From the NCBI RefSeq assembly GCF_009914755.1, contig NC_060936.1: DNA of 64,000 nucleotides; one strand, 5' to 3'. A program made the position numbers and the translations under genes. Below the pieces are notes generated by a model. The model was not told the DNA's origin and searched no databases. It saw only the letters and a program-made list of their open reading frames with translations. Positions within the stretch are counted from its first letter, which is position 1. Each line of letters opens with the position of its first letter. This document shows positions 36,063 to 40,241 of the stretch, in pieces. The stretch is from the human T2T-CHM13v2.0 reference genome, Homo sapiens.

Positions 36063-37146
36063 TGAGGTATGTTATGGCTTAACCCTTCACCCTTCACCTC
36101 AATAGAGTTTTTATTTTATTTTATTTTGAGATGGAGTCTGGCTCTGTTATCCAGGCTGGATTCACCGTGGCACAATCTCGGCTCACTGCCTCAGCCTCCC
36201 GAATAGCTGGGATTACAGGCGCCTGCCACCGCACCTAGCTAATTTTTGTATTTCAGTAGAGACGGGGTTTCACCATGTTGGCCAGACTGGTCTTGAACTC
36301 CTAACCTGAGGTGATCTGCCTACCTTGGCCTACCAAAGTGCTGGGATTACAGGCGTGAGCCACCGTGCCTGGCCTCAATAGAGTTTTTAAAAAAATAAAC
36401 AAAGTCTCCCAATTCCAAACAATAGGAATAGATCTTCATCACACCAATTTGTACTTTATTTCTTATACTTGAGGTTAGATTCTAAACCCTAAAGATATCC
36501 AGACTAGTATTAGATCTACTTATCTATAGCCAGAGACAGCTTCTATCAATGTTGTCCTTAACAGCCAAGGTTATTAAAATGTCTTTTCTCAGGAAAGATC
36601 CAATAGGAAAAAAGAAAGAAACCTCTCTGATTAGGCTCCAACCATACCCCACCCTCCATGAGATTGACTGGATAGGCATCATGGAAACCAGAACACGTAG
36701 TTTCCATACAAGAAAAATCCTATGAGGGATGGGAGGAGGGGAGAGGAAGGATTCAGCCAGTGTCCAGACTGAAACTGAGTAACATCAATTTCACTCATCT
36801 TCACACGTCTTCAGGTTGCATGTTCATGGAGTAGTTTAGGAATAAATCCATGGTTTGTGGAGTACTAAAATACCTAGTGGTCTGCTGTATTACATTAAGG
36901 CCTTCCCCAGCAGCTTCCAAGGCAGCCTCCAAGTCACTGGCAGGAGAATTTGGCTGGAACTGCATGCAGGACTGCAGAGATTCCTCTCCACAGTTATAGA
37001 AGGGACTGTTCCAGGCCTGATTGTTCCAGGATTGGGTGCACCAGGTCTGAGTGTTCCAGGAGTGGTTGCTCCAGGACTGGATGTTCTGGGTCTCGTTGCT
37101 CCAGGTTGAATTGTTCCAGGTCTGGTTGCTCCACATTGGAAGGTTC
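36063..37146 (-). repeat. Inverted duplicate of NANOGP1 exon 4 (from NLPMW) and 3'UTR, within intron 2
   Basis: Reverse complement of 38744-~40100, minus the Alu at ~39433-39716. The ORF track shows the NANOG WR/CD2 peptide on both strands (36801-37151 minus; 38730-39089 plus). Confidence 0.97.
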
Positions 37147-38450
37147 TTCACCTCTTTCTTTCATTAAATATCTATTACGTGAATGTGATATAATTTAACC
37201 ACTTTCTTTTCTTGCATAGACCAATATTGTGAAAATCTTTCCAATGTTTCCTTAATCAAAAAGAATTATGGGCCGGGCGCAGTAGCTCACACCTGTAATC
37301 CCAGCACTTTAGGAGGCCAAGGCAGGCAGATTACCTGAGGTCAGGAGTTCAAGACCAGCCTCGCCAACATGGTGAAACCCCGTCTCTACTAAAAATACAA
37401 AAAATTGCCGGGCGTGGTGGTGGTTGCCTGTAATCCCAGCTACTAAGGAGGCTGAGGCAGGAGAATTGCTTGAACCCATGAGGTGGAGGTTGCAGTGAGC
37501 CGAGATCTTGCCACTGCACTCCAGCCTAGGCGAAAGGTCAAGACTCCGTCTCAAAAAAAAAAAAAAAAAAAAAAAAAAAGAATTACATAACTCCACTTTC
37601 CAGGTTAGGAGAATTCCTAACTTACACTGGTTCTCATTAAAATAAAAACTACCTCTTCTTTTTCCTTTTTTTCTTTCTGCCAGCAGCCTCCAGCTTCTTT
37701 TGTTTTTAGCCCTTATTTTGTATCGAAAATGTTCATTTCTCTTTTTTATTTTTATTTTTTTTAAAACAGTCTTTGTTGCCCAGGCTGGAATGCAGCTGTG
37801 CAATCTTGGCTCACTGCAACCTCCACCTCCCAGGTGCAAGCGATCCTTCCATCTCCGCGCCTGAGTAGCTGGGACCATAGGCACACACCATTATGCCGGG
37901 CTAATTTGTTACTTTATTTTATTTTTTTGAGACGGAGTCTCGCTCTGTCGCCCAGGCTGGAGTGCAGTGGCGCAATCTCGGCTCACTGCAAGCTCCGCCT
38001 CCCGGGTTCAAGCCATTCTCCTGCCTCAGCCTCCCGAGTAGCTGGGACTACAGGCGTGCGCCGCCACGCCCGGCTAATTTTTTTTTTTTTTTTTTTTTTT
38101 TTGTATTTTTAGTAGAGACGGAGTTTCACCATGTTAGCCAGGATGGTCTTGCTCTCCTGACCTCATGATCCGCCCGCCTCGGCCTCCCAAAGTGCTGAGA
38201 TTACAGGCGTAAGCCACTGCGTATGCCTGGCTAATTTTTTTAATTTTTGTAAAGACAGGGTTTCACCATTTTGGCGAGGCTGGCGCGAACTCCTGGGCTT
38301 AAGCAATTCGCCCACCTTGGCTTCCCGAAGTGTTGGGATTACAGGTGTGAGACATGGTGCCTGGCCAGGAATAAAAGTTAGTAGTATTCTTTCATTCAAA
38401 GTACATCCGTATTATTAATATTTTATAATTTCTGTCATTTTTTCCTGCAG

Positions 38451-38537
38451 GTGAAGACCTGGTTCCAGAACCAGAGAATGAAATCTAAGAGGTGGCAGAA
38501 AAACAACTGGCTGAAGAATAGCAATGGTGTGACGCAG
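38451..38537 (+). CDS. NANOGP1: NANOGP1 exon 3 (homeodomain recognition helix [16 protein letters not shown])
   Basis: tttcctgcag| acceptor and CAG|GTAACA donor, 87 nt. Confidence 0.93.
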
Positions 38538-38672
38538 GTAACAGGAAACTTCATTCTGTTCTTTCCTTTCAGTGATCTTTCAATCTTGTCCATCCCTGAA
38601 ACACACAACTCCAGTCACAGACAGTTCTGGTTGTCCTTGTACCCTTTCTGTTAATCTCTCCTTCTCTTTGAG

Positions 38673-39089
38673 AAGGCCTCAGCACCTACCTACCCCAGCC
38701 TCTACTCTTCCTACCACCAGGGATGCCTGGTGAACCCGACTGGGAACCTTCCAATGTGGAGCAACCAGACCTGGAACAATTCAACCTGGAGCAACCAGAC
38801 CCAGAACATCCAGTCCTGGAGCAACCACTCCTGGAACACTCAGACCTGGTGCACCCAATCCTGGAACAATCAGGCCTGGAACAGTCCCTTCTATAACTGT
38901 GGAGAGGAATCTCTGCAGTCCTGCATGCAGTTCCAGCCAAATTCTCCTGCCAGTGACTTGCAGGCTGCCTTGGAAGCTGCTGGGGAAGGCCTTAATGTAA
39001 TACAGCAGACCACTAGGTATTTTAGTACTCCACAAACCATGGATTTATTCCTAAACTACTCCATGAACATGCAACCTGAAGACGTGTGA
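38673..39089 (+). CDS. NANOGP1: NANOGP1 exon 4 CDS (CD1, tryptophan repeat, CD2); alternative in-frame acceptor at 38721
   Basis: [34 protein letters not shown]...MQPEDV*. The proximal acceptor is GAG rather than CAG. CAG|GGATGC lies 48 nt downstream. Confidence 0.9.
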
Positions 39090-40241
39090 AGATGAGTGAA
39101 ATTGATGTTACTCAGTTTCAGTCTGGACACTGGCTGAATCCTTCCTCTCCCCTCCTCCCATCCCTCATAGGATTTTTCTTGTATGGAAACTACGTGTTCT
39201 GGTTTCCATGATGCCTATCCAGTCAATCTCATGGAGGGTGGGGTATGGTTGGAGCCTAATCAGAGAGGTTTCTTTCTTTTTTCCTATTGGATCTTTCCTG
39301 AGAAAAGATATTTTAATAACCTTGGCTGCTAAAGACAACTTGATAGAAGCTGTCTCTGGCTATAGATAAGTAGATGTAATACTAGTTTGGATATCTTTAG
39401 GGTTTAGAATCTAACCTCAAGAATGAGAAATAAGCTGGGCGCGGTGGCTTACATCTGTAATCCCAGCACTTTGGGAGACCAAGGCGGGCGGATCACGAGG
39501 TCAGGAGATCGAGACCATCCTGGCTAACACGGTGAAAACCTGTCTCTACTAAAAAATACAAAAAAGTTAGCTGGGCATGGTGGTGGGCGCCTGTAGTGCC
39601 AGCTACTCGGGAGGCGGAGGTTGCAGTGAGCCAAGATCGCGCCACTGCACTCCAGCCTGGGCGACAGAGTGAGACTCTGTCTCAAAAAAAAAAAAAGAAA
39701 AAGAAAAAGAAAAGGAAATAAAAGTACAAATTGGTGTGATGAAGATATATTCCTATTGTTTGGGATTGGGAGGCTTTGTTTATTTTTTTAAAAACTCTAT
39801 TGAGGCTGGGTATGGTGGCTCACACCTGTAATGGCAGCACTTTGGGAGGCCAAGGTAGGCAGATCACCACAGGTTAGGAATTCAAGACCAGTCTGGCCAA
39901 CATGGTGAAATCCCGTCTCTACTAAAATACAAAAATTAGCTGGGCATGGTGGCAGGCGCCTGTAATCCCAGCTACTCGGGAGGCTGAGCGGAGATGGTGC
40001 CACAGCAATCCAGCCTGGATGACAGAGCCAGACTCCATGTCAAAATAAAATAAAAACTCTATTGAGGTGAAGGGTGAAGCTTTAAGTTGTTACATACTTC
40101 ACTGATTTCCTCAACCCTTTTTGGCTCCGTTTTACTATAGCCCGTATTTTGTTGGTTATGACTAATATTTGTGGAAAGAGGTCTTGTGTTTAGTGCATTA
40201 TAATGGCATCAGTACTACTTCGGCTGGTTTAAGTACTAATG

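What the first reader, a model, noticed from the sequence alone, without database searches (positions are those of the whole stretch)
36063..40100. NANOGP1 intron 2 holds a ~1.1 kb inverted copy of its own exon 4 and 3'UTR: a built-in long RNA hairpin
Seen: 36063-37146 is the reverse complement of 38744-~40100. The ~1.6 kb loop between the arms contains exon 3 and both exon-4 acceptors (38673 and 38721, the latter 23 nt from the stem). Recalled: NANOG intron 2 is about half this length and I know of no such insert there. Inference: unspliced NANOGP1 RNA can form over 550 bp of nearly perfect dsRNA, a substrate for ADAR, Dicer or MDA5/PKR. The excised intron is also a natural antisense RNA to the NANOG/NANOGP8 C-terminal coding region, which is nearly identical. 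That would make NANOGP1 a possible trans-regulator of NANOG rather than only a redundant copy.
Basis: partly seen in the sequence, partly recalled or inferred. Interest (0 to 1): 0.92.

Follow-up and report, generated by a model that had tools for sequence, protein, structure and literature searches.

The report
Inverted exon copy inside NANOGP1 intron
NANOGP1 carries in its second intron a backwards 1.1-kb copy of its own last exon and tail, so its unspliced RNA can fold into a very long double-stranded stem; the copy is real and old, but nothing yet shows that it controls NANOG.

Summary
Window 36053-37146 (intron 2 of NANOGP1) is the reverse complement of 38744-40106 (exon 4 from its 24th base, 3'UTR and a little beyond), apart from a 281-bp Alu (39434-39714) found only in the right arm. 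It is a DNA-level inverted duplication of NANOGP1's own sequence. It is not a retrocopy, not a copy of NANOG, and not an assembly artefact. NANOG has no such insert.

New here: the arms have two histories. The inner 565 bp differ at 2 sites (0.35%). The outer parts differ at 43 of 509 sites (8.4%), p = 1e-12. This indicates an old duplication, roughly 12-48 My, followed by recent arm-to-arm gene conversion. A second conversion tract (38435-39101) joins NANOG and NANOGP1 across exon 3, intron 3 and the exon 4 coding part. This weakens the published argument that selection conserved the reading frame.

The predicted fold of 36053-40106 pairs 1043 bases between the arms, with a longest helix of 367 bp. 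Editing, dicing or antisense action on NANOG could not be tested here. Published CRISPRi silencing of NANOGP1 left pluripotency genes unchanged, which argues against a strong trans effect. I found no description of this feature in print. Interest is moderate.

The parts
36053..37146 (-). Left arm: antisense copy, in intron 2, of NANOGP1 exon 4 (from its 24th base), 3'UTR and about 50 nt past a NANOGP1-specific Alu. On the minus strand it still reads the last 114 codons of NANOG without a stop.
   Evidence: translation
36582..37146 (-). Left-arm half of the homogenised tract. It has 2 differences from the right arm in 565 bp and one private change at 37094.
36110..36372 (-). Left-arm copy of the older Alu shared by both arms, flanked by both copies of its target-site duplication (coordinates approximate).
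37147..38743 (+). Loop of 1597 nt: rest of intron 2 (with an inverted Alu pair of its own), exon 3, intron 3 and the first 71 nt of the full-length exon 4.
38451..38537 (+). Exon 3, inside the loop.
   Evidence: hub annotation; (matches NANOG exon 3, 1 difference in 87)
38673..38743 (+). Part of exon 4 outside the stem, with acceptors at 38673 (GAG here, CAG in NANOG, because of G at 38670) and 38721 (23 nt from the stem).
38744..40106 (+). Right arm: exon 4 from base 24, stop codon at 39088-39090, 3'UTR and downstream sequence.
38744..39308 (+). Right-arm half of the homogenised tract, with one private change at 38961 (E to Q).
39434..39714 (+). Alu present only in the right arm, with an A-tail and a roughly 7-bp target-site duplication. 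The left arm keeps the empty site, so this Alu inserted after the inverted duplication.
39806..40054 (+). Older Alu with a 16-bp target-site duplication. It is present in both arms but absent from NANOG (L009 position 7400). It shows the left arm was copied from NANOGP1.
38435..39101 (+). Tract nearly identical to NANOG (5 differences in 667), spanning exon 3, intron 3 and the exon 4 coding part. This is NANOG-NANOGP1 gene conversion.
36045..36056 (.). Left junction: homology to NANOG intron 2 ends and the arm begins, with an imperfect overlap of 1-4 nt and no T-run.
37144..37150 (.). Right junction: the arm ends at 37146 and intron 2 homology resumes, with 1-3 nt of overlap. About 17 bp of ancestral intron are missing between the two junctions.

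Best explanation
This is an old DNA-level inverted duplication inside NANOGP1. About 1.08 kb was copied backwards into intron 2, 1.6 kb upstream. The copied piece runs from 23 nt inside exon 4, through the 3'UTR, to about 50 nt past an Alu that had already landed in NANOGP1. The copy replaced about 17 bp of intron. The junctions point to break repair or replication template switching, not retrotransposition (inferred). The order of events is shown by the sequence: (1) the NANOG/NANOGP1 duplication; (2) insertion of the first Alu; (3) the inverted copy; (4) insertion of a second Alu in the right arm only; (5) recent gene conversion. The conversion made the inner 565 bp of the two arms alike again, while the outer parts kept 5-9% divergence.

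At the RNA level, both arms lie on one pre-mRNA. The left arm cannot be spliced out until exon 3 is made, about 290 nt before the right arm begins. The nascent transcript can therefore zip into a 0.7-1.1 kb stem that closes a 1.6-kb loop holding exon 3 and the exon-4 acceptors (computed). The most likely consequence acts in cis (inferred, not shown). ADARs would edit both arms promiscuously from A to I, with the intron copy acting as an oversized editing-complementary sequence for exon 4. There may also be some effect on exon 3-4 splicing or nuclear retention. It is probably a tolerated by-product rather than a dedicated regulator of NANOG.
For: Structure.

Copied from NANOGP1, not NANOG: both arms share an Alu with its 16-bp target-site duplication and a 7-bp duplication, and NANOG lacks both.

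Not a retrocopy: the arm ends about 218 nt short of the poly(A) site, which is marked at L009 7650 by the ends of homology of NANOGP4 and NANOGP8. There is no A/T run and no target-site duplication. About 17 bp of target are deleted, and the junction overlaps are 1-4 nt.

Order of the second Alu: the empty site is preserved in the left arm.

Gene conversion: 2 of 565 sites differ in 38744-39308, against 43 of 509 in the rest (Fisher p = 1.4e-12), or 20 of 260 in the non-Alu rest (p = 7e-9). In the diverged part both arms carry private derived changes when polarised with NANOG and five retrocopies.

Ages, scaled to the 40 My published for the NANOG/NANOGP1 duplication (PMC10110494, section read): distal arm divergence gives 26 My (CI 12-48), and the homogenised tract gives 1.9 My (CI 0.2-6.9).

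RNA stem: MFE is -2843.6 kcal/mol with 1043 arm-to-arm pairs and a longest helix of 367 bp. The control with the left arm reversed gives -1548.3 kcal/mol and 33 pairs. The 565-bp tract alone gives a duplex of -1178 kcal/mol.

Real, not an artefact: 73 differing alignment columns, a private Alu, and both flanks colinear with NANOG intron 2.
Against: No RNA data of any kind could be consulted, so duplex formation in cells, editing and splicing effects are all inferred.

NANOGP1 mRNA and protein are abundant in naive hPSCs (PMC10110494, abstract and sections read). Any cis penalty is therefore partial at most.

A search for an editing footprint in retrocopies found no sense-strand A>G excess. For example NANOGP4 has 2 A>G against 6 T>C among 33 private changes.

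The homogenised tract ends at 39308/39309, within a few bases of the site where NANOG carries its own 3'UTR Alu. Simple arm-to-arm conversion does not explain this.

A two-step origin, with an old outer copy and a recent inner re-copy, gives the same pattern as conversion.

No ape or monkey genome could be searched, so the age rests on a divergence clock with wide intervals.
Confidence: 0.7

Rival explanations
1. Functional hairpin or antisense locus. The hairpin or the excised intron yields endo-siRNAs, or pairs with NANOG/NANOGP8 mRNA, and so tunes NANOG in trans.
For: The left arm has 305 nt of perfect and 343/344 coding complementarity to NANOG mRNA. The stem is very long. NANOGP1 is highly transcribed in naive hPSCs and early epiblast (PMC10110494 abstract). 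Pseudogene hairpins giving siRNAs have precedents, including the human psiPPM1K (PMC3616710, passages read).
Against: CRISPRi of the NANOGP1 promoter (90% knock-down, described as gene-specific) left pluripotency genes unaltered and the transcriptome undisturbed. The known repression of NANOG by NANOGP1 was obtained with an intron-less transgene, that is, by the protein. Pairing within one molecule with the right arm should outcompete pairing in trans. High arm identity is explained by gene conversion and needs no selection. Human Dicer handles long dsRNA poorly (recalled; compare the abstract of PMC11239679 in the listing). No small-RNA or editing report naming NANOGP1 was found.
Confidence: 0.07
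2. Inert DNA relic. The inverted copy exists, but in cells the stem rarely forms or has no measurable consequence because of fast splicing, helicases or RNA-binding proteins.
For: NANOGP1 is productively spliced and translated. Its silencing has almost no phenotype. There is no editing footprint in retrocopies.
Against: The non-Alu core of the left arm has no competing partner in the window. It cannot be removed before exon 3 is transcribed, about 290 nt ahead of the right arm (coordinates). Far weaker inverted Alu pairs are edited throughout human pre-mRNAs (established knowledge, recalled).
Confidence: 0.18
3. Two-step origin instead of gene conversion. An old inverted copy of the distal part was later extended or overwritten by a second, recent copying event of 38744-39308.
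For: There is a sharp step in divergence at 39308/39309, and the tract runs exactly to the inner end of the arm.
Against: This would need a second rearrangement landing in perfect register with the first. Conversion between close inverted repeats is common and gives the same pattern. The inner junction shows a single clean join to intron 2. In practice the two are hard to tell apart.
Confidence: 0.08
4. The left arm is a 5'-truncated processed pseudogene (L1-mediated retrocopy of NANOG or NANOGP1 mRNA) that inserted in antisense.
For: NANOG has ten retrocopies (PMC1457002, passages). The arm starts inside exon 4 and runs through the 3'UTR. An AATAAA sits in the shared Alu's tail about 50 nt before the arm's end.
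Against: There is no poly(A)/T run and no target-site duplication, and about 17 bp of target are deleted. The arm ends about 218 nt before the poly(A) site used by NANOGP4 and NANOGP8.
Confidence: 0.02
5. Assembly artefact (fold-back chimera).
For: None found.
Against: The arms differ in 73 alignment columns and by a whole Alu. Both flanks continue colinearly with NANOG intron 2. An artefact would give identical arms.
Confidence: 0.01

Closest known systems
Hairpin-RNA / pseudogene inverted-duplication endo-siRNA loci (mouse oocyte pseudogene hairpins and Drosophila hpRNAs, recalled; human psiPPM1K, PMC3616710, passages read)
   Same: A copy of a gene carries an inverted duplication of gene sequence within one transcript. 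The arms are complementary to the parent gene's mRNA.
   Different: Here one arm is an intron and the other a used coding exon plus UTR, so the hairpin exists only before splicing. The arms are 10-30 times longer than the psiPPM1K hairpin. No small RNAs are known.
Exon-intron editing duplexes for ADAR (exon paired with an intronic editing-complementary sequence, as at the GRIA2 Q/R site; recalled)
   Same: An intronic sequence complementary to a coding exon of the same pre-mRNA forms the duplex, so any editing must precede splicing and would recode the exon.
   Different: Classical cases are tens of base pairs and imperfect, give site-selective editing, and are conserved by selection. This duplex is 565-1043 bp, predicts promiscuous editing, and owes its identity to gene conversion. 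Editing was not shown.
Inverted Alu pairs in pre-mRNAs and 3'UTRs (recalled)
   Same: An intramolecular long dsRNA formed from an inverted repeat within one gene. The distal parts of both arms are in fact an Alu pair.
   Different: Alu pairs in this window are 200-310 nt and 78-90% complementary. The core here is unique gene sequence: 691 nt at 98.6%, and antisense to a specific mRNA.
Palindromes with arm-to-arm gene conversion (human Y and X ampliconic palindromes; recalled)
   Same: Inverted arms around a short spacer, with arm identity far above what the age of the duplication allows.
   Different: Those arms are 9 kb to 1.45 Mb. This one is 1.1 kb and intragenic, and conversion covers only the inner half.
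Expressed, structurally stable inverted duplicates of mammalian genomes (PMC5398296, abstract read)
   Same: Same structural class: two reverse-complementary copies with a spacer, transcribed and predicted to form a stable hairpin.
   Different: That survey covered intergenic elements. This one lies inside a gene and pairs an intron with an exon.

Membership tests
Inverted duplicate / hairpin-forming locus (structural class) | Two reverse-complementary copies separated by a spacer | tested here: met
   691 nt at 98.6% plus 388 columns at 89.2%, spacer 1597 nt
Inverted duplicate / hairpin-forming locus (structural class) | Both arms in one transcript, with the hairpin as the predicted stable fold | tested here: met
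   Both arms lie within NANOGP1 32552-39432 and its 3' region (hub annotation). MFE fold has 1043 arm-to-arm pairs. Control loses 1295 kcal/mol.
hpRNA / endo-siRNA gene | Complementarity of an arm to a target mRNA in trans | tested here: met
   305 nt perfect and 343/344 coding identity to NANOG; 171 nt perfect to the NANOGP8 locus
hpRNA / endo-siRNA gene | Dicer-dependent 21-23 nt RNAs from the arms | not testable with these tools
   No small-RNA data available. 0 mentions of NANOG in two pseudogene-siRNA papers searched by word; their supplements were not seen.
hpRNA / endo-siRNA gene | Target changes when the locus is silenced | tested here: not met
   Literature only: NANOGP1 CRISPRi (90%) left pluripotency genes unaltered in naive hPSCs. 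One cell state; the figure values were not seen.
ADAR substrate (exon / intronic complementary sequence) | Exon-intron duplex longer than about 30 bp in the pre-mRNA | tested here: met
   Predicted only: longest helix 367 bp
ADAR substrate (exon / intronic complementary sequence) | A-to-I (A>G) changes in transcripts | not testable with these tools
   'NANOGP1' plus 'RNA editing' gave 3 papers, none on this by title or abstract. An indirect test on retrocopies showed no A>G excess.
Processed pseudogene (retrocopy) | Poly(A) tail at the 3' end, ending at the mRNA's poly(A) site | tested here: not met
   No A/T run at 36053. The arm ends about 218 nt before the site marked by NANOGP4/P8.
Processed pseudogene (retrocopy) | Target-site duplication | tested here: not met
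   About 17 bp of target deleted instead
Processed pseudogene (retrocopy) | Exon-exon junctions without introns | tested here: inconclusive
   The copy starts 23 nt inside exon 4, so no junction is covered
Palindrome with arm-to-arm gene conversion | Arm identity far above that expected from the age of the duplication, with a tract boundary | tested here: met
   2/565 vs 43/509 differences, p = 1.4e-12; ages 1.9 vs 26 My
Palindrome with arm-to-arm gene conversion | Independent conversion events seen in related species or haplotypes | not testable with these tools
   No primate or other human assembly is held

The most novel reading that the evidence does not exclude
NANOGP1 could be a catarrhine-born hairpin-RNA locus. 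In the few cell types where it is strongly transcribed (pre-implantation epiblast, naive hPSCs, germ cells and germ-cell tumours), interferon responses are muted. There, the 0.7-1.1 kb exon-intron duplex or the excised antisense intron might be processed into small RNAs or hyper-edited dsRNA. These would dampen NANOG/NANOGP8 or buffer dsRNA sensing. Arm-to-arm conversion would keep the trigger matched to its target, because the same tract is also being exchanged with NANOG.
Probability: 0.06. Interest if true: 0.85.

Novelty: new member of a known kind. Interest (0 to 1): 0.42.

Why it matters
(1) NANOGP1 is now treated as a protein-coding, great-ape-retained duplicate of a core pluripotency factor. 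A 1.1-kb inverted copy of its last exon inside its own intron is missing from every description I could search. It should be part of the gene model.

(2) The arms, together with intron 3, show that the C-terminal half of NANOGP1 is kept like NANOG by gene conversion. [quoted passage not shown]

(3) Practical consequences. The left arm is a third (minus-strand) chr12 match for sequence from the exon 4 coding part after its first 71 nt, including the stop codon. It has 347 nt perfect identity to NANOGP1 exon 4 and 305 nt to NANOG. Reads there are multi-mapping and were discarded by the MAPQ>=20 filter used in the main NANOGP1 study. Guides or primers at the NANOG stop codon also match the left arm. 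Two near-identical inverted 565-bp tracts 1.6 kb apart could also invert exon 3 by recombination.

(4) The duplex offers a ready natural test of what a cell does with a very long, near-perfect exon-intron dsRNA in pluripotent cells.

Tried and rejected
Retrocopy origin: rejected.

Copy of NANOG rather than of NANOGP1: rejected, because the arms share a NANOGP1-only Alu and a 7-bp duplication.

Assembly artefact: rejected.

Editing 'fossil' test: private substitutions in five retrocopies over the arm region show no sense-strand A>G excess. P8's count there is inflated by misalignment around its Alu.

NANOGP4 as a retrocopy of NANOGP1: suggested by 4 shared UTR states, but rejected by exons 1-2. 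There NANOGP4 shares 11 NANOG-derived states against 2 NANOGP1-derived states.

Rfam scan of 35500-40600: 0 families.

Literature. 'NANOGP1'+'inverted' gave 12 papers, 11 listed. I opened 5 of them by word search, and in all five the word refers to something else. The other 6 I saw as listing only. Word searches for inver*/antisense/hairpin/palindrom* in Fairbanks 2006, Maskalenka 2023 and Eberle 2010 gave 0 hits. 'NANOGP1'+'gene conversion' gave 3 papers. In the two I opened by word search, one raises conversion only as a general possibility and the other discusses NOTCH2NL; the third I saw only as a listing. Two searches were badly framed, because min_terms did not force NANOGP1, and they say nothing about NANOGP1. 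Booth & Holland 2004 and Hart 2004 were not looked up, and no supplements were seen.

No primate genome or second human assembly is reachable with these tools, so conservation and polymorphism stay open.
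Full report
**Observation**

The inverted repeat is real and far beyond chance. The repeat finder on 32000-42000 gives arms 36551-37146 and 38744-39339: 596 nt ungapped, 99% complementary, 1597 nt apart. blastn of the two regions gives two matches:
- 36456-37146 against 39433-38744: 98.55% over 691 columns (9 mismatches, 1 gap, E = 0).
- 36078-36462 against 40086-39715: 89.2% over 388 columns.

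Between these two blocks the right arm holds 281 bp (39434-39714) that the left arm lacks.

In a window-wide scan for inverted pairs of at least 200 nt within 10 kb, 42 pairs were found and 25 shown. This pair is the longest. The other 23 pairs shown (apart from this repeat's own outer part, I4) are Alu-sized (200-310 nt) at 78-90%.

The window is chr12 of the held assembly, G000:C12:7874001-7938000, so NANOG itself could be fetched as locus L009.

**Anatomy**

Colinear blocks between NANOGP1 and NANOG show the following:
- Intron 2 homology runs to 36052 (NANOG L009 4926) and resumes at 37146 (L009 4953).
- Everything between those points is the inverted copy.
- Printed junctions show that about 17 bp of ancestral intron are missing.
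- The overlaps at the two joins are only 1-4 nt.
- There is no A/T run and no target-site duplication.
- The outer end of the left arm lies at about 36053. I judged this by eye from its match to NANOG's downstream sequence, where it is closer to NANOG than the right arm is.

The resulting dimensions are:
- Left arm: 1094 bp.
- Right arm: 38744-40106.
- Loop: 37147-38743, holding exon 3, intron 3 and the first 71 nt of full-length exon 4.

Translation of 38673-39090 gives the NANOG C-terminus in frame, so 38673 is the canonical acceptor. It reads GAG here where NANOG has CAG, because of G at 38670. The annotated acceptor 38721 is 23 nt from the stem.

NANOG intron 2 is 1244 bp (exon matches) against 2524 bp here. 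NANOG's 10-kb locus holds no minus-strand copy of its own exon 4/3'UTR.

**Source and order of events**

Both arms carry an Alu (right arm 39806-40054) flanked by a 16-bp target-site duplication, and a 7-bp duplication just beyond it. NANOG has neither: its sequence passes straight through at L009 7400. The left arm was therefore copied from NANOGP1, after that Alu had inserted.

The 281-bp element found only in the right arm is another Alu, with an A-tail and a target-site duplication of about 7 bp. The left arm keeps the single empty site, so this Alu inserted after the copy was made. By recalled diagnostic motifs the shared Alu looks like an AluS and the private one like an AluY. I did not test this.

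A retrocopy origin fails for two reasons. Homology of NANOGP4 (chr7) and NANOGP8 (chr15) to NANOG genomic DNA ends at L009 7650, which marks the poly(A) site, and this is about 218 nt beyond the arm's end. The junctions also lack a tail and a target-site duplication. Retrocopy names follow the chromosome bands given in PMC2211742 (passages).

The junction features fit non-homologous or microhomology-mediated repair, or a replication template switch to the opposite strand within a few kb. That mechanism is inferred.

**Two histories in one pair of arms**

Aligning the arms with the private Alu left out gives 1102 columns, of which 73 differ.

| Region (right-arm coordinates) | Differences |
|---|---|
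| 38744-39308 | 2 of 565 (0.35%; none in the 221 UTR bases) |
| 39309-39433 | 7 of 123 |
| 39715-39805 | 3 of 85 |
| Shared Alu | 23 of 249 |
| Last 52 bases | 10 of 52 |

The inner tract against all the rest gives Fisher p = 1.4e-12. Against the non-Alu rest it gives p = 7e-9.

I polarised the differences with NANOG and five retrocopies. In the diverged part both arms carry private derived changes. In the inner tract each arm has one private change: 37094 in the left arm, and 38961 in the right arm, which is E to Q in the protein.

I scaled ages to the 40 My published for the NANOG/NANOGP1 duplication (PMC10110494, section 9 read), using 7.4% intron divergence measured here:
- Distal non-Alu divergence: 26 My (CI 12-48).
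- With the Alu included: 39 My.
- Inner tract: 1.9 My (CI 0.2-6.9).

The simplest reading is an old duplication whose inner 565 bp were recently homogenised by arm-to-arm gene conversion. The private Alu acts as a heterology barrier some 125 bp beyond the tract. A second, in-register copying event would look the same.

One thing is unexplained. The step at 39308/39309 falls within a few bases of the site where NANOG carries its own 3'UTR Alu. That sequence looks like a preferred L1-endonuclease target. A nick there, repaired from the other arm out to the end of homology, would fit, but this is speculation.

**NANOG is part of the exchange**

NANOG against NANOGP1 by feature:

| Feature | Differences |
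|---|---|
| Intron blocks | 6.7-15.6% (134 of 1564 overall) |
| Exon 3 | 1 of 87 |
| Intron 3 | 2 of 135 |
| Exon 4 coding part in the arm | 1 of 344 |
| Proximal 3'UTR | 12 of 219 |

The tract 38435-39101 has 5 differences in 667. Against the other introns this gives p = 7e-16, and intron 3 alone gives p = 0.0014. Because a non-coding intron is included, this is gene conversion between NANOG and NANOGP1 (about 4 My ago, CI 1.3-9.5), not only purifying selection.

The left arm is intronic and cannot be under coding constraint. Yet it is identical to NANOG at 343 of 344 coding bases and still reads 114 codons without a stop. It must therefore have been converted from the right arm after that exchange.

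[quoted passage not shown] The words 'conversion' and 'concerted' do not occur in that paper. Scerbo et al. raise gene conversion between tandem NANOG paralogues only as a general possibility.

**RNA level**

The minimum-free-energy fold of 36053-40106 (4054 nt) is -2843.6 kcal/mol, with these features:
- 1043 arm-to-arm pairs.
- 683 of them in the expected register of the 691-nt block.
- A longest uninterrupted helix of 367 bp.

With the left arm reversed (same composition), the fold is -1548.3 kcal/mol with 33 arm-to-arm pairs. The 565-bp tract alone gives a duplex of -1178 kcal/mol.

The core of the left arm has no other partner in the window. It cannot be spliced away before exon 3's acceptor is transcribed, about 290 nt ahead of the right arm. 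Folding within one molecule is therefore plausible (inferred).

By established knowledge (recalled), long near-perfect nuclear dsRNA is promiscuously deaminated by ADAR1/2 and can be retained or cleaved. Here that would hit a coding exon before splicing. I hold this cis effect to be the most likely consequence, but nothing here shows it.

As an indirect test I looked for an A>G excess among private substitutions of retrocopies over the arm region. There was none. Rfam finds no known RNA family in 35500-40600.

**The trans-regulation idea**

The sequence premise is true. The left arm has 305 nt of perfect antisense match to NANOG mRNA and 171 nt to the NANOGP8 locus. The available functional data do not favour it:
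- CRISPRi at the NANOGP1 promoter removes the pre-mRNA and so the intron. It cut NANOGP1 by 90% and was described as gene-specific. It left pluripotency genes unaltered and did not disturb the naive transcriptome (PMC10110494, section 14; I saw text and legends, not figure values).
- The repression of NANOG by NANOGP1 reported there used a transgene, so it reflects the protein (section 12).
- Precedents for pseudogene hairpins giving siRNAs exist, including the human psiPPM1K (PMC3616710). Neither that paper nor a survey of human pseudogene small RNAs (PMC3974860) mentions NANOG in the main text. Their supplements were not seen.

**Why it was probably missed**

- The main NANOGP1 study self-aligned 250 kb and filtered RNA-seq at MAPQ>=20, which hides a 347-nt perfect duplicate.
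- Eberle et al. describe the introns as Alu-rich with 'very little homology'.
- I found no description in print, subject to the limits stated under Tried and rejected.

**Verdict**

This is a real, previously undescribed (as far as I could search) intragenic inverted duplication. It belongs to a known structural class. It carries a clear record of concerted evolution and has a strong but untested potential to form exon-intron dsRNA. I rate interest as moderate.

Noticed in passing
window 38435-39101: Exon 3, intron 3 and the exon 4 coding part differ from NANOG at only 5 of 667 sites, while other intron blocks differ by 6.7-15.6%. This is a NANOG-NANOGP1 gene-conversion tract. It bears on the published 'selection-driven conservation' argument.
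   Followed up: yes
window 32313-32916: The 237 aligned bases upstream of exon 1 differ from NANOG at 2 sites (0.84%), but exon 1 itself differs at 44 of 363 (12%). This sharp contrast suggests another conversion tract or strong promoter constraint next to a fast-diverged exon.
   Followed up: no
window 39115, 39183, 39296, 39298; locus L004 (NANOGP4, chr7): At 4 of 12 proximal-UTR sites NANOGP4 shares the NANOGP1 state, against NANOG, NANOGP8 and older retrocopies. Yet exons 1-2 show NANOGP4 derives from the NANOG lineage (11 vs 2 shared derived states). One possibility is that NANOGP4 was retrocopied from a NANOG allele that had been converted by NANOGP1. Unexplained.
   Followed up: partly
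window 39299-39309 and NANOG L009 6905-7237: The arm-to-arm homogenised tract ends within a few bases of the site where NANOG has its own 3'UTR Alu insertion. This is either coincidence or a shared nick/recombination hotspot.
   Followed up: partly
locus L002 (NANOGP9, chrX) about 1490-1878; NANOG L009 7383-7404: NANOGP9 carries an independent Alu insertion within about 20 bp of the site where NANOGP1's shared Alu inserted. This A/T-rich 3'UTR site seems to be a repeated Alu target. It explains why the first genome search matched chrX through the Alu.
   Followed up: partly
window 38670: The canonical exon-4 acceptor reads GAG in NANOGP1 and CAG in NANOG. G at -3 is disfavoured (recalled), which may explain why the annotation and reported isoforms use 38721 and other downstream acceptors.
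   Followed up: no
window 37391-37576 and 37905-38090: An inverted Alu pair (186 nt, 84%, 328 nt apart, I4) sits inside the loop and would form its own stem, shortening the effective loop around exon 3.
   Followed up: no
window 36092-36100 and 37146-37154: The same 9-mer occurs near the outer end of the left arm and at the inner junction/target site (read). This may be chance; I estimate about 0.2 expected.
   Followed up: no
window 36803-37145, minus strand: The intronic copy keeps an open frame for the last 114 residues of NANOG (tryptophan-repeat and C-terminal domains), with an internal Met at its 4th codon. No minus-strand gene is annotated there, so this is probably never expressed.
   Followed up: no
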